A stretch of DNA of 55,265 nt from a virus. Its lineage: Duplodnaviria; Caudoviricetes. Positions 8,416 through 10,653 of the stretch are shown here, one piece after another. The stretch spans positions 1-55,265 of the IMG/VR virus record IMGVR_UViG_3300037264_004101; one strand, 5' to 3'. How positions within the stretch are numbered: position 1 is the first letter of the stretch; every line of letters starts with the position of its first letter. The notes beneath the pieces are model-generated. The model had not been told where the DNA came from. It worked only from the letters and a program-made list of their open reading frames with translations, and made no database searches. The position numbers were made by a program, and so were the translations under genes.

Positions 8416-8679
8416 TCACGGCCGGAGACCCTGCTCATAGACAGCTTGTGCAATCTGCTCCAGCTCCTCGCGCACCTCGGCCAGCCGTAAGACTCGGCTC
8501 CCGTGTTCGCGCCGTGCTTGCTCGAAGGCGCCTTCATCTTGGACGTAATAATCGCGTCCATTAGGGGCTGCTCTCTCGAGCGCATGTTCAGCGGCTCGCA
8601 GCGCTTCCGTTGCATATTGGAGCTGCACGAGAAGCTCCGCCCCGCTCGTACCGTTCAGATGAACCGTCGGTATGCGCAT
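8416..8679 (-). CDS. hypothetical helical phage protein (gene 4 of the hammerhead operon)
   Basis: ATG at 8679 after GGGAGAGA RBS; PTVHLNGTS...PNGRDYY. Confidence 0.75.
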   Translation of the reverse strand: MRIPTVHLNGTSGAELLVQLQYATEALRAAEHALERAAPNGRDYYVQDEGAFEQARREHGSRVLRLAEVREELEQIAQAVYEQGLRP

Positions 8680-8695
8680 GACTCTCTCCCTTGGT

Positions 8696-8772
8696 TGCGA
8701 GGAGCGACCTCGGAAAAACCTCATCAGGCCAGGCGCTACCTGGCGACGCGCCGCCGTGGCGCGTTTCGGCTA
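8696..8772 (-). ncRNA. type II hammerhead ribozyme HH1
   Basis: Minus strand: UAG-CC-GAAAC-GCGCC acggc GGCGC-GUC^-GCCAGG uagcg CCUGGC-CUGAUGA-GGUU...GAGG ucgcu CCUC. The core is complete; predicted cut at 8745/8744. Confidence 0.9.
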
Positions 8773-9861
8773 CTGTACGGTCTCAACCTCGCGCCGGCCG
8801 CTGACGAGTTGCCCGGCGAGCTTCTGCAGCTCGAGCTTGCGGTCGGGGTTGTCGACCTTGCCAGCGATCCATGAGAGCGCGTTGCTGGCGCGCCACGTGG
8901 TGTTACCTGCCGGCAAGTTCACGATATCGTCGGATTCGAAAATTTCCTTGGCAGCTTGCAGCTCGCCCTTGAGCAGCTTCTTGGCAATAGCTGAGTTGAT
9001 GTGCTTCCACTCGACCTTGTGCTCGTGCGCCCGTTGGATGCCGGCGCAGAGCTGTTTGATCTTGCGGGGCGCCAGGACCCCGCGCACCACGTCACGCAAG
9101 GCGCTGATGCTGGTCCTGGTATCCAGCTCGTAGGTGCGCTGCGACAGCTCGATGTCCTCTCCCAGCCGGCCGCCGAGGTGCACTTGGGCCAGGGAGTTCT
9201 CCATCGTGGCGCCGTTGAGGCAGGCGACGCGGAGCATGAAGGCTCTCAGAGCGTGAGAGCCCGCACCGAAGTCGCTGTTGTGCCATTCAACCCCGAACGC
9301 CATGACCTCGCCCGGAACTGGCTCGTACACCTGAGGCACGAGGGCCTTGAGCGCCACGCGAGTGTCCGAGCACGTGCCCTCTACGGGAATCGCGCCGACG
9401 GATTGACATTCTTCCGCGAAAGCTTCGAGGAGCGGCCGGCTATCCAGCCGGCGATACCTGTTCGACAGAAAGCCGCGCGCCTGCTCCTGGACCTCACGGA
9501 CCAAGAACCGCGCCGTCGACTGGCCCTGGTGATAGTGGCGGTTCAGCACCTCGGCCGCCAACTCCCCCTGCCAGCCGCCCGCCTCGGCCAGGTCGGCGAG
9601 GTAGGCTCCTGGGATGCCGGCGCGCTGGGCCATCTGCCCCAGCGCGTGCTTGTGCACACCGAGGCGCACGGTGCCGAATCCCAGGCGCAGCTCCTTGTCG
9701 CCCGGCTCGAAGCGCAGCGCCTGGCCACTGAGGACGGTGTCCCGTGGCGCCTCGCGGTGCACGCGGTCGAACAGGTCGAGCGCACTCGTGCGCCCCGTGT
9801 CGATTTTGCTGGCAAGCACCGCCCGTGCTCTACCCGCGGTTTCTTCCGATGGCTGATACAT
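8770..9861 (-). CDS. DUF932/DUF945-like protein (gene 3 of the hammerhead operon)
   Basis: Motifs RGFLSNRYRRLD and NSDFGAGS...LRVACLNG; GGGAGAGA RBS. Confidence 0.75.
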   Translation of the reverse strand: MYQPSEETAGRARAVLASKIDTGRTSALDLFDRVHREAPRDTVLSGQALRFEPGDKELRLGFGTVRLGVHKHALGQMAQRAGIPGAYLADLAEAGGWQGELAAEVLNRHYHQGQSTARFLVREVQEQARGFLSNRYRRLDSRPLLEAFAEECQSVGAIPVEGTCSDTRVALKALVPQVYEPVPGEVMAFGVEWHNSDFGAGSHALRAFMLRVACLNGATMENSLAQVHLGGRLGEDIELSQRTYELDTRTSISALRDVVRGVLAPRKIKQLCAGIQRAHEHKVEWKHINSAIAKKLLKGELQAAKEIFESDDIVNLPAGNTTWRASNALSWIAGKVDNPDRKLELQKLAGQLVSGRREVETVQ

Positions 9862-9878
9862 GATTCTCTCCCTGGGTT

Positions 9879-9957
9879 GCGAGGAGCTGCCTCGCGTGCC
9901 TCATCAGGCCAGGCGCTACCTGGCGACGCGCGTTTCGGTAACGCGCGTTTCGGTTTA
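9879..9957 (-). ncRNA. type II hammerhead ribozyme HH2
   Basis: UAA-ACC-GAAAC-GCGCGUU accga AACGCGC-GUC^-GCCAGG uagcg CCUGGC-CUGAUGA-GGCAC-GCGAGG cagcu CCUCGC; predicted cut at 9925/9924. Confidence 0.85.
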
Positions 9958-10227
9958 CGCCTCGGCGACTTCATCGACCGTGGCTTCATTCTTCTTTGCC
10001 CATTTCTCCAGCGCAGATTCGGAGGCGAACAGGCTGTTGAACTTGCGGCCGGTCGTGCCCTTGGTGCCTTTCGCGCGAATCTTGCCTTGCGGCTTCTTCT
10101 CTTCCTCCTCGGTGTCGTCCTTGGGGGCTTTGTCGCTGAACAGGGTGAGCGCCTTGTGCAGTACCGCCAGGTTCTTCTCCAGCATCTTGATCTCGGCCTT
10201 GAGCGTTTTCACCAGATTTGATTGCAC
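9955..10227 (-). CDS. small Lys/Glu-rich hypothetical protein (gene 2 of the hammerhead operon)
   Basis: GTG at 10227 after AGGAGA RBS; 90 aa starting MQSNLVKTLKAEIK. Confidence 0.7.
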   Translation of the reverse strand: MQSNLVKTLKAEIKMLEKNLAVLHKALTLFSDKAPKDDTEEEEKKPQGKIRAKGTKGTTGRKFNSLFASESALEKWAKKNEATVDEVAEA

Positions 10228-10245
10228 GGTAGTTCTCCTGTTGAG

Positions 10246-10318
10246 CGAGGAGCGACCTCGGAAAAACCTCATCAGGCCAGGAGCTACCTGGCGACGGGGG
10301 CGGTCCCCCGTTTCGGCG
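10246..10318 (-). ncRNA. type II hammerhead ribozyme HH3
   Basis: (UGA)-CGCC-GAAAC-GGGGG accg CCCCC-GUC^-GCCAGG uagcu CCUGGC-CUGAUGA-GGUUUUUC-CGAGG ucgcu CCUCG; predicted cut at 10293/10292. Confidence 0.88.
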
Positions 10319-10588
10319 TCAACCATTGTCGTATTCAGCACAGTCTGCTGAATGACTGTTGCCAGCCCCGCTCCAGCCCCAGCAGCAGCCGTAGCCGAAA
10401 TCCCACGCAAACCGGTTCGAGGTAATTATCGAGCCATCCTCGAACGTCCATCGAGTATCCCCCTGGGGGCTACGCTCCTTTTTGGCACCCGCATCACTAC
10501 AAGCGGTTCCCAGGCTAACGCCTGTTAGCGATGTGAATCTCTCGCCATCATTGTCAAACATCTCTGCAATTTTCTTCGCCGTGTTCAT
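10319..10588 (-). CDS. hypothetical protein (gene 1 of the hammerhead operon)
   Basis: ATG at 10588 after AGGGAGAGA RBS; WTFEDGSII...CCWGW. Confidence 0.7.
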   Translation of the reverse strand: MNTAKKIAEMFDNDGERFTSLTGVSLGTACSDAGAKKERSPQGDTRWTFEDGSIITSNRFAWDFGYGCCWGWSGAGNSHSADCAEYDNG

Positions 10589-10624
10589 CGTTCTCTCCCT
10601 GTTTGTTTTGTTGTTCATAATCAA

Positions 10625-10653
10625 AAGATACTACACACAATGTAGAGAGTCAA
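10625..10653 (-). promoter_or_regulatory. sigma70-type promoter driving the hammerhead operon
   Basis: TTGACT-17 nt-TATCTT with an AT-rich upstream tract, about 35 nt before the 10588 start. Confidence 0.7.

What the first reader, a model, noticed from the sequence alone, without database searches (positions are those of the whole stretch)
8416..10653. Four-gene operon punctuated by three hammerhead ribozymes, one in every intergenic gap
Seen: on the minus strand, after a TTGACT-17-TATCTT promoter, the order is gene1-HH3-gene2-HH2-DUF932-HH1-gene4. Each element has the full core in type II order: GAAAC, stem III, GUC, stem I, CUGAUGA, G. The three stem IIIs differ in sequence but all pair (GGGGG/CCCCC, GCGCGUU/AACGCGC, GCGCC/GGCGC), which is covariation evidence for selected RNA structure. 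GAAAC lies 2-4 nt after each stop codon (UGA, UAA, UAG), and each element ends in a hairpin just before the next RBS. Established: hammerheads cut after GUC, leaving a 5'-OH and a 2',3'-cyclic phosphate. Inference: the phage self-processes an early polycistronic mRNA into single-gene RNAs (368 nt for 10292-9925; 1180 nt for 9924-8745), each with a 5'-OH hairpin end that could resist 5'-monophosphate-dependent decay. Stem II abuts or overlaps the stop codon, so cutting could be coupled to translation termination.
Basis: partly seen in the sequence, partly recalled or inferred. Interest (0 to 1): 0.93.

Follow-up and report, generated by a model that had tools for sequence, protein, structure and literature searches.

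The report
Three hammerhead ribozymes punctuate phage operon
A tailed-phage genome carries a self-cutting hammerhead RNA motif in each of the three gaps of a four-gene operon, a real but already described kind of arrangement whose biological purpose is still unknown.

Summary
On the minus strand, three type II hammerhead motifs sit at 10318-10265, 9955-9897 and 8771-8717. Each has the full catalytic core and lies between a stop codon and the next ribosome-binding site. They are the only Rfam matches with E<=0.5 in the whole 55-kb phage. All three score below the curated cut-off (33.7, 30.3 and 26.7 bits against 37). Stems I to III pair, stem III differs between copies by compensatory changes, and the ribozyme fold lies within 1.2 kcal/mol of the predicted optimum. 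Homologues of the 363-aa gene 3 are bracketed by type II hammerheads with unrelated stem sequences in 7 other contigs. In one of these, a twister ribozyme follows in the next gap of the same operon.

Cutting into single-gene RNAs is the standard inference. Perreault et al. 2011 described clustered hammerheads flanking prophage genes and showed such triple arrays cleave in vitro, one also in vivo. "Early" expression, stabilisation by 5'-OH ends and coupling to translation termination are untested. "DUF932" is supported only by language-model and fold similarity, not by Pfam. No RNA data exist for this phage.

Verdict: a new member of a known kind, of moderate-to-low novelty.

The parts
10724..10749 (-). 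Upstream promoter-like motif TTGACT-N14-TAGTAT (first of two tandem copies)
   Evidence: 2 matches in the window, both upstream of gene 1, against 0.00 expected. Consensus match only; function is inferred.
10625..10653 (-). Promoter-like site TTGACT-17-TATCTT (contains the second TTGACT-N14-TAGTAT copy)
   Evidence: 9 of 12 consensus positions, the only site found in 7000-12600, with 1.0 expected by chance. for the fuller motif.
10319..10588 (-). Gene 1, 89 aa, no family match
   Evidence: Open frame with GGGAGAGA-N3-ATG. No Pfam, PHROG, NCBIfam or PADLOC hit.
10265..10318 (-). Hammerhead type II 'HH3'. Stem II is GCC/GGU. Stem III is (A)CGGGGG/CCCCCG(U). Stem I is GCCAGG/CCUGGC. Predicted cut after C10293.
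   Evidence: Rfam RF02276 26.7 bits. Own model R1 62.4 bits (this copy was in the training set). Ribozyme fold plus downstream hairpin -32.4 against MFE -33.3 kcal/mol.
10246..10260 (-). Hairpin CGAGG-UCGCU-CCUCG between HH3 and the gene 2 ribosome-binding site
   Evidence: Sequence. Present in the MFE fold.
9955..10227 (-). Gene 2, 90 aa, GTG start after AGGAGAA. Orphan with a weak Lsr2-like PHROG hit.
   Evidence: phrog_1223, E=0.002; no homologue other than itself.
9897..9955 (-). Hammerhead type II 'HH2'. Stem II is only CC/GG. Stem III is (A)CGCGCGUU/AACGCGCG(U). Predicted cut after C9925.
   Evidence: Rfam RF02276 33.7 bits over the full model length. R1 66.0 bits. Ribozyme fold -35.3 against MFE -36.5 kcal/mol.
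9879..9895 (-). Hairpin GCGAGG-CAGCU-CCUCGC between HH2 and the gene 3 ribosome-binding site
   Evidence: Sequence. Present in the MFE fold.
8770..9861 (-). Gene 3, 363 aa, DUF932-like phage protein (phrog_1362)
   Evidence: phrog_1362 E=5.4e-36. 894 homologues with E<=0.001. ESM Atlas nearest clusters are DUF932. No direct Pfam hit.
8717..8771 (-). Hammerhead type II 'HH1'. Stem II AGCC/GGUU overlaps the last two bases of the TAG stop. Stem III is (A)CGCGCC/GGCGCG(U). Predicted cut after C8745.
   Evidence: Rfam RF02276 30.3 bits. R1 69.9 bits. The ribozyme fold equals the MFE at -32.6 kcal/mol.
8698..8712 (-). Hairpin CGAGG-UCGCU-CCUCG between HH1 and the gene 4 ribosome-binding site
   Evidence: Sequence. 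Present in the fold of the minimal element.
8416..8679 (-). Gene 4, 87 aa, no family match
   Evidence: Open frame with GGGAGAGA-N3-ATG. tblastn finds 52.5% identity over 59 aa in locus L151, E=2.5e-9.

Best explanation
The three elements are functional type II hammerhead ribozymes. They lie in one transcript that starts at the sigma-70-like sites upstream of gene 1 and runs through genes 1 to 4.

As each element is transcribed it folds and cuts itself after the C of GUC. This releases four RNAs.
- Each upstream product ends just past its stop codon in the stem III hairpin, with a 2',3'-cyclic phosphate.
- Each downstream product begins with a 5'-OH at the base of the stem I hairpin.
- From there it carries the same ~75-nt leader: stem I, CUGAUGAGG, a second hairpin, then the ribosome-binding site.

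The net effect is to uncouple the four genes. Each gets a defined, context-independent 5' leader and a structured 3' end. Its stability and translation are then set per gene, not by the operon.

Shown here: motif, core, pairing, position, and recurrence next to homologues of gene 3. Taken from the literature: hammerhead chemistry, and cleavage of comparable prophage arrays. Inferred: that these three cleave in vivo, and what cleavage does to expression.
For: Core and topology:
- All core positions and the type II order were read directly.
- They are matched by Rfam RF02276 at E 2e-4 to 0.013.
- For the single family over the genome, E is 1.1e-6 to 7.1e-5.
- These are the only hits with E<=0.5 in the all-family scan of the window.

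Chance: 3 matches against 0.15 expected.

Fold: the ribozyme fold plus the downstream hairpin is 0 to 1.2 kcal/mol from the MFE.

Covariation within the window:
- The copies are near-identical from GUC to the ribosome-binding site.
- Stem III differs with both sides changed: GGGGG/CCCCC, GCGCC/GGCGC and GCGCGUU/AACGCGC.

Covariation across relatives: in 19 type II hammerheads from this and related contigs, 95.5% of pair cells are standard pairs against 62.0% in shuffles. 14 of 17 pairs show changes on both sides.

Recurrence next to gene 3 homologues:
- 8 of 150 loci encoding a homologue (7 distinct contigs) have a type II hammerhead.
- 9 of the 10 distinct hits directly abut the homologue's start or stop.
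- Locus L066 repeats the layout: hammerhead, gene(s), hammerhead, homologue, hammerhead, gene, then a twister-P5 ribozyme at 49.2 bits, above its cut-off of 37.6.

Literature:
- Triple prophage hammerhead arrays cleave in vitro, one also in vivo (PMC3088659, section read).
- Three type II hammerheads near phage-like genes of D. vulgaris cleave in vivo (PMC8782182, passages).
- The synthetic insulator RiboJ is likewise a ribozyme followed by a hairpin upstream of the gene (PMC8794103, passages).
Against: - All three score below Rfam's curated cut-off, so the default scan finds nothing.
- No loop I to 3'-tail pseudoknot is detectable beyond chance. The best complementarity is 3 bp, and 48-91% of shuffled tails do as well.
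- Perreault et al. found that losing such a contact cut activity more than 100-fold in one ribozyme at 0.5 mM Mg2+. Rates could therefore be low in vivo.
- Stem II is only 2 bp in HH2.
- On longer stretches the MFE of HH3 and HH2 uses competing pairings.
- The seven closest protein relatives of gene 3 with sequence past the stop (59-67% identity) show no type II hammerhead. The elements are thus not conserved at short evolutionary distance.
- Most of the 19 aligned hammerheads were picked by a descriptor or a model that demands pairing. The covariation statistics are inflated by that selection.
- No RNA data are available.
- Genes 1 and 2 have no homologues, so 'four genes' rests partly on open frames with ribosome-binding sites.
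Confidence: 0.7

Rival explanations
1. The ribozymes are active, but cleavage serves to shorten expression. The 5'-OH downstream products and the unprotected upstream products are degraded faster. This gives a 5'-to-3' gradient, or a short pulse, of expression along the operon.
For: - The same motif evidence applies as for the best explanation.
- The review PMC6765202 (passage) leaves open whether processing yields different stabilities or different translation efficiencies.
- From my own knowledge, not from a call: the 5'-OH product of the glmS ribozyme is degraded by RNase J1 in Bacillus.
Against: - Each product would start and end in a stable GC-rich hairpin. In bacteria such hairpins usually slow decay.
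- A standard leader with its own hairpin and a strong ribosome-binding site follows each cut. That looks built for translation, not for decay.
- The host and its RNases are unknown. The nearest cellular homologues of gene 3 are in Myxococcota MAGs.
Confidence: 0.15
2. The repeated ~75-nt block (stem I to ribosome-binding site) is chiefly a recombination or cassette-shuffling module for accessory genes. The hammerhead motif would be a slow or vestigial passenger.
For: - The three copies are near-identical from the GUC onward and diverge upstream of it. The unit of similarity is therefore the leader of each gene.
- Neighbours of gene 3 homologues are not conserved. Genes 1 and 2 have no tblastn match in 150 loci, and gene 4 has one match, in L151, not next to that locus's homologue.
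- No tertiary contact was detected.
Against: - A perfect core is kept in all three copies, and stem III is compensated.
- Hammerheads with unrelated stem sequences occupy the same junctions in other contigs. Sequence homology for recombination cannot explain that.
- A twister ribozyme occupies an equivalent gap in L066.
Confidence: 0.1
3. Gene-length RNAs excised between two hammerheads are joined end to end by a host ligase of the RtcB type, giving circular or spliced RNAs.
For: - Excised RNAs would carry the 5'-OH and 2',3'-cyclic phosphate ends that RtcB-type ligases use (my own knowledge).
- Perreault et al. raised this possibility.
Against: - Perreault et al. looked for circular or spliced products and detected none.
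- Each excised RNA keeps its stop codon, so a circle offers no obvious advantage.
- Nothing in the window points to it.
Confidence: 0.03

Closest known systems
Clustered or triple hammerhead arrays flanking genes in prophages (Perreault et al. 2011, PMC3088659: Clostridium scindens, Azorhizobium caulinodans, Agrobacterium tumefaciens ardA locus)
   Same: - Several hammerheads lie on one strand, each in an intergenic gap.
- They flank single genes of variable identity in phage DNA.
- Stem II is very short.
- The proposed role is processing of a polycistronic phage transcript into gene-length mRNAs.
   Different: - Here all three are type II and near-identical from the cut site to the ribosome-binding site.
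- They lack the loop I/tail pseudoknot reported for most type II examples.
- Each is followed by a separate hairpin.
- The flanked genes are a DUF932-like protein and three small orphans, not ardA.
- Cleavage has not been tested.
Rfam RF02276 Hammerhead_II; the active type II hammerheads of Desulfovibrio vulgaris near phage-like genes (Olzog et al. 2021, PMC8782182)
   Same: - The same core.
- The same circular permutation, with stems I and III closed and stem II open.
- The same phage-gene neighbourhood.
   Different: - The window's copies score 3-10 bits below the curated cut-off.
- Loop I has 5 nt where the model consensus has about 10 unaligned loop positions.
- The 3' tail does not match the model, except weakly in HH2.
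RiboJ synthetic ribozyme insulator (an sTRSV ribozyme followed by a 23-nt hairpin upstream of the gene; described in PMC8794103)
   Same: The order is ribozyme, hairpin, ribosome-binding site. After cleavage the gene has a fixed, structured 5' leader that is independent of what lay upstream.
   Different: - RiboJ is an engineered part derived from a plant satellite RNA.
- It removes a promoter-derived leader rather than an upstream gene.
- The resemblance is functional only.
Twister ribozymes in the same genetic neighbourhoods (Rfam RF02684; association stated in PMC4604425, introduction)
   Same: A twister sits in an equivalent gap (after a stop codon, before a ribosome-binding site) in the related operon of L066. 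A sub-threshold match lies right after the gene 3 homologue in L136.
   Different: It is a different fold and catalytic core. None was found in the window itself.

Membership tests
Hammerhead ribozyme, type II (Rfam RF02276) | Conserved catalytic core: C3-U4-G5-A6-N7-G8-A9, G12-A13-A14, the A15.1-U16.1 pair, and a cleavage-site nucleotide H17 that is not G | tested here: met
   CUGAUGA, GAAA and GUC are present and correctly ordered in all three copies. They align to the model core with posterior probability marked '*'.
Hammerhead ribozyme, type II (Rfam RF02276) | Three helices around the core in type II permutation: stems I and III closed by loops, stem II open, 10.1-11.1 a G-C pair | tested here: met
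   - Stem I has 6-7 bp, stem III 6-8 bp plus A-U, and stem II 2-4 bp starting G-C.
- Stem III changes between copies are compensated.
- 95.5% of pair cells are standard pairs in 19 related hammerheads.
Hammerhead ribozyme, type II (Rfam RF02276) | Operational criterion (a database cut-off, not a structural feature): score at or above the curated gathering score of 37 bits | tested here: not met
   - Scores are 33.7, 30.3 and 26.7 bits, with no match at gathering.
- The shortfall lies in the short loop I and the unmatched 3' tail, not in the core or stems.
Hammerhead ribozyme, type II (Rfam RF02276) | [quoted passage not shown] In most type II examples this is a pseudoknot of 4 bp or more between loop I and the tail just after stem II. 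It is frequent but not universal (about 40% of all hammerheads, PMC3088659). | tested here: inconclusive
   - The best loop I/tail complementarity is 3 bp (AGC/GCU, in the loop of the downstream hairpin for HH1 and HH2). It is no better than 48-91% of shuffled tails.
- By eye HH1 can extend this to 4 bp (AGCG/CGCU).
- A relative, L135, has a clear 6-bp pseudoknot.
Hammerhead ribozyme, type II (Rfam RF02276) | Mg2+-assisted self-cleavage 3' of H17, giving 2',3'-cyclic phosphate and 5'-OH ends | not testable with these tools
   No RNA run holds the sequence. A bench test is needed.
Clustered prophage or phage hammerhead arrays (Perreault et al. 2011) | Two or more hammerheads on one strand in close proximity, flanking individual genes or short gene blocks in phage DNA | tested here: met
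   - Three are found within 1.6 kb, one per gap, all on the minus strand.
- The record is a tailed-phage genome with terminase, portal, tape measure, baseplate and DNA polymerase genes, and is 93% complete.
Pfam PF06067 DUF932 (gene 3) | Match to the Pfam model at its gathering score | tested here: not met
   - The protein has 0 Pfam hits at E<=0.01.
- 1 of 45 homologues matches, at E=0.028.
- Only the ESM Atlas points to DUF932. By features, 28 of 30 hits share that family set, with a best score of 0.97. By fold, TM is 0.93 to a cluster in which 18% of members carry DUF932.
- I therefore call gene 3 DUF932-like, not a member.

The most novel reading that the evidence does not exclude
The junctions flanking the DUF932-like gene may be a conserved 'RNA-end' site that different phages fill with unrelated devices.

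Devices seen at or near this junction:
- Type II hammerheads: this window and 7 other contigs.
- A twister-like element: L136, sub-threshold.
- A twister above its cut-off, in the next gap of the L066 operon.
- In 5 contigs, a tRNA-like acceptor/T-arm minihelix that host RNase P or RNase Z could cut.

If so, selection acts on having a defined mRNA end next to this gene, whatever makes it. Hammerheads that abut the stop codon would then be transiently blocked by a terminating ribosome, so cutting would follow translation of the upstream gene. The basis is that 14 of 19 lie within -2 to +5 nt of an upstream stop.
Probability: 0.2. Interest if true: 0.6.

Novelty: new member of a known kind. Interest (0 to 1): 0.33.

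Why it matters
The biological role of bacterial and phage hammerheads is still open fifteen years after they were found in bulk. The 2019 review PMC6765202 says more work is needed to define their purpose.

This operon is a compact test case:
- It has three near-identical ribozymes, each followed by a hairpin and a strong ribosome-binding site.
- Each sits within 4 nt of a stop codon.
- They flank a gene family (DUF932-like, phrog_1362) that is repeatedly bracketed by ribozymes in unrelated phages.

It could be used to measure whether natural ribozyme punctuation insulates, stabilises or destabilises phage mRNAs, and whether termination at the adjacent stop codon gates cleavage. It does not reveal a new class of RNA or a new principle.

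Tried and rejected
**Close relatives.** I looked for nucleotide-level relatives to test conservation of the gaps.
- The exact 29-nt block gives 0 matches in viral contigs.
- blastn of the operon gives no match in GenBank phages.
- The gene 3 protein alone gives none in viral contigs.
- A looser stem I pattern found 4 unrelated viral contigs with type II hammerheads in similar stop-to-start gaps.
- A pattern for 'CUGAUGAGG plus hairpin' gave 33 loci. None holds a hammerhead by my descriptor, so the downstream hairpin has no detectable relatives.

**Kissing-loop idea.** I tested whether loop I pairs with the loop of the downstream hairpin.
- The complementarity is only 3-4 bp.
- The one position that differs between copies does not covary: HH3 has U opposite C and HH2 has G opposite A.
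- It is not better than shuffled tails. Left as unsupported.

**RNA evidence.** No RNA holder is listed for the operon. Read laying was not used, because the two listed holders are DUF-neutral DNA contigs and would not show RNA ends.

**Other searches with no useful result.**
- Rfam E-value scans of 32 relatives' loci found only one sub-threshold twister. The scan of 20 loci did not even recover the hammerheads that my model finds in L116 and L121, so these blanks are weak.
- ARAGORN finds no tRNA in the window or in 13 relatives' loci.
- There is no PDB relative of gene 3.
- The operon's proteins have no PADLOC hit, and no NCBIfam match better than E=0.03, far below the curated cut-offs.
- No paper holds both 'DUF932' and 'ribozyme'. 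The 13 papers that mention DUF932 were seen as a listing only.
- Intrinsic terminators at the elements are rejected: the scan places none there.

**Sources I could not see.**
- Weinberg et al. 2015, with its list of ribozyme-associated genes, is not held.
- The supplements and Figure 3 of Perreault 2011 could not be seen. Gene 3's family may already be listed in one of these.

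
Full report
**What is there.** The window is a complete record of a tailed phage (55,265 bp, 93% complete by the record's estimate).
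- Plus-strand genes match terminase, portal, tape-measure and baseplate families.
- Minus-strand genes match primase/helicase, exonuclease, helicase, DNA polymerase, MazG and a RuvC-like resolvase.
- The finding lies at the distal end of that leftward arm.

Reading the minus strand gives the following order:
- Two tandem copies of a promoter-like motif, TTGACT-N14-TAGTAT, at 10749-10724 and 10653-10628. They are found nowhere else in the window (2 against 0 expected).
- Gene 1 (10588-10319, 89 aa).
- Element HH3 (10318-10265).
- Gene 2 (10227-9955, GTG start, 90 aa).
- Element HH2 (9955-9897).
- Gene 3 (9861-8770, 363 aa).
- Element HH1 (8771-8717).
- Gene 4 (8679-8416, 87 aa).

**Check of the observation.**
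- Each element has CC-GAAAC, a GC-rich hairpin, GUC, the hairpin GCCAGG-N5-CCUGGC, then CUGAUGA-GG.
- The composite pattern occurs 3 times against 0.15 expected by chance (0 of 100 shuffles reach 3).
- A 29-nt block is shared by all three.
- Only 3 of the 10 CTGATGA words in the window belong to such elements.
- Rfam's default scan reports nothing.
- With E-value reporting, Hammerhead_II matches all three at 33.7, 30.3 and 26.7 bits, against a curated cut-off of 37.
- These are the only three matches with E<=0.5 among 4227 families over the whole phage.
- The same single-family search at E<=1 'rings' in 6 of 14 control genomes, so weak hits are common. The window's E-values in that search are 1e-6 to 7e-5.
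- The alignments show the shortfall comes from a 5-nt loop I and an unmatched 3' tail, not from the core.

**Structure.**
- On the minimal element, the hammerhead secondary structure plus the downstream hairpin costs 0, 0.9 and 1.2 kcal/mol relative to the MFE for HH1, HH3 and HH2.
- On 100-nt stretches the MFE of HH3 and HH2 uses competing pairs, and z-scores are modest at -1.6 to -2.3.
- The three copies are near-identical from the GUC to the ribosome-binding site and differ in stem III. There, three of five positions flip G-C to C-G between HH3 and HH1. HH2 adds two U-A pairs.
- The unit of similarity is thus the leader that each downstream RNA would carry after cleavage.
- I found no loop I/tail pseudoknot beyond chance. 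A kissing contact with the downstream hairpin loop is possible (3-4 bp) but unsupported.

**Relatives.**
- No nucleotide-level relative exists in GenBank phages or IMG/VR.
- Gene 3 has many protein homologues: 894 with E<=0.001, the best at 67% identity.
- I fetched 150 loci encoding homologues: 49 viral, 21 from genomes and 80 from metagenomes. At least 6 are the same contig fetched twice.
- The nearest cellular hits are Myxococcota MAGs.
- A strict descriptor found 13 distinct type II hammerheads among the 112 records held at that point.
- A covariance model built from those 13 (A3, R1) found type II hammerheads in 8 of the 150 loci (7 distinct contigs). These are L049 (the same contig as L148), L066 with three, L071 with two, L075, L116, L121 and L135.
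- Six of these ten hammerheads were not in the model's training set.
- 9 of the 10 abut the start or stop of the gene 3 homologue.
- Their stems are unrelated in sequence to the window's. Over 19 aligned hammerheads, 95.5% of pair cells are standard pairs against 62% in shuffles and 30-38% with slid partners. 14 of 17 pairs change on both sides.
- These numbers are inflated, because the sequences were selected by tools that demand pairing. Their positions next to a homologous gene were not selected.
- Against conservation: the closest relatives (59-67% identity; L132, L136, L137, L113, L138, L112, L119) have no type II hammerhead. They carry other structured spacers of 70-130 nt.

**Position relative to translation signals.**
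- 17 of 19 hammerheads follow an open frame of 60 codons or more that ends within -2 to +27 nt of stem II.
- For 14 of 19 the gap is -2 to +5 nt.
- Where a next start with an SD-like word was found (14 of 19), it lies 9-57 nt after the element in 13 and 123 nt after in one (L007).
- These are mechanical open frames.
- In the window the gaps are 0, -1 and -2 nt from the stop to a 4-nt stem II window, and 35-37 nt to the next start.

**What it most likely does.**
- Hammerhead chemistry is established knowledge.
- Perreault et al. 2011 (PMC3088659; abstract, passages and the section on newfound hammerheads read) described multiple hammerheads flanking individual prophage genes.
- They proposed processing into operon-length or gene-length mRNAs, and showed cleavage of three triple arrays in vitro and of the A. 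tumefaciens array in E. coli.
- Olzog et al. 2021 (PMC8782182, passages) showed in vivo cleavage of three type II hammerheads near phage-like genes.
- I therefore read this locus as a further example. Co-transcriptional self-cleavage would give four RNAs, each downstream one with the same hairpin-flanked leader.
- The ribozyme-hairpin-RBS order parallels the synthetic insulator RiboJ (PMC8794103, passages).
- Whether cleavage stabilises, destabilises or merely uncouples the genes is not known. The 2019 review PMC6765202 (passage) says the purpose remains to be defined.

**The genes.**
- Gene 3 matches phrog_1362 (unknown function, E=5e-36).
- It has no Pfam hit. Only 1 of 45 homologues touches DUF932, at E=0.028.
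- The ESM Atlas places it next to DUF932 clusters, at 0.97 by features and TM 0.93 by fold.
- No solved structure is related.
- Genes 1, 2 and 4 have no convincing family hit; gene 2's only match is a weak Lsr2-like PHROG at E=0.002. Gene 2 has no homologue at all. Gene 4 has one tblastn match.
- Neighbours of gene 3 homologues are not conserved. This fits Perreault's remark that the flanked genes vary.

**Side observations in relatives.**
- L066 carries three hammerheads and then a twister-P5 at 49.2 bits, above its cut-off, in the next gap.
- L136 has a sub-threshold twister-P5 match (32.7 bits against 37.6) starting at the stop of the homologue.
- Five contigs carry a tRNA-like acceptor/T-arm minihelix within about 100 nt after the homologue's stop. 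My own descriptor gives 15 hits in all, against 0-8 in shuffles. ARAGORN called no tRNA in the three of them it was run on (L042, L129, L130); L166 and L188 were not scanned.
- Together these suggest, but do not show, that an RNA end next to this gene is what is selected.

**Verdict.** The elements are very probably genuine hammerheads. The arrangement is a new member of a kind described in 2011.

Noticed in passing
L129:1451-1489, L130:3659-3699, L042:3663-3722, L166:3707-3752, L188:3657-3715: In five relatives, the gap just after the gene 3 homologue's stop holds a tRNA-like minihelix: an acceptor-like stem plus a T-arm with a UUCGAnn or UUCAAAU loop. It is not a full tRNA where tested (ARAGORN found none in L042, L129 and L130; L166 and L188 were not scanned). 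It could be an RNase P or RNase Z processing site at the position where other phages have a hammerhead. My descriptor gave 15 hits in 0.8 Mb against 0-8 in shuffles, and 5 of them fall in these short windows.
   Followed up: partly
L066:1783-1853, 2357-2416, 3610-3666, 4395-4458: A 65.9-kb viral contig has an operon with three type II hammerheads and then a twister-P5 ribozyme (49.2 bits, above the 37.6 cut-off) in successive gaps. The gene 3 homologue lies between the second and third hammerheads. Each element follows a stop codon and precedes a GGAGA-type ribosome-binding site.
   Followed up: partly
L136:736-806: The second-closest homologue of gene 3 (67% identity) is followed at once by a sub-threshold twister-P5 match (32.7 bits against 37.6, E=0.0047). 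Two conserved positions of the 3' motif differ from the consensus.
   Followed up: no
window 9954-9942 and 9939-9927 (minus strand): Stem III of HH2 is built from a 13-nt tandem duplication (ACCGAAACGCGCG twice, 2 nt apart). Its palindromic core lets the two copies pair with each other, so the element contains a second, non-functional GAAAC.
   Followed up: no
window 8718-8712 with 8690-8683; 10268-10262 with 10239-10234 (minus strand): The U-rich tract UUUUUCC after HH1 and HH3 is complementary to the next ribosome-binding site (GGGAGAGA or GGAGAA). In the 100-nt MFE fold of HH1 they pair and mask the site. HH2 lacks the tract, so this is not a shared feature.
   Followed up: no
window 10749-10724 and 10653-10628 (minus strand): Two tandem promoter-like motifs, TTGACT-N14-TAGTAT, lie 96 nt apart. 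They are unique to the region upstream of gene 1.
   Followed up: partly
window 8411-8379 (minus strand): Between gene 4 and the next small gene (8361-8119, 80 aa) lies a TTTACA-17-TATAGG promoter-like site. It overlaps a 7-bp inverted repeat (TGTACCT..AGGTACA), possibly an operator.
   Followed up: no
L006:2951-3011, 3313-3364, 3963-4021: An unrelated 45.7-kb viral contig has three type II hammerheads in successive gaps. The first two score 32.1 and 35.8 bits in Rfam; the third did not reach E<=0.1 there and was found by my descriptor and model R1. Each is followed by a CA-rich, SD-less leader (repeats of CAACC/CCAAC) before the ATG.
   Followed up: no
L135:2406-2463: The hammerhead upstream of this gene 3 homologue has the canonical type II pseudoknot: 6 bp between loop I (UGGGCU) and the tail just after stem II (AGCCCA). 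The window's copies lack it.
   Followed up: no
window 9955-10227 (minus strand): Gene 2, which would be released as the 368-nt RNA, has no homologue among 5.8 billion clustered proteins apart from itself. Its coding status rests on the open frame, the AGGAGAA site and a weak Lsr2-like PHROG hit (E=0.002).
   Followed up: partly
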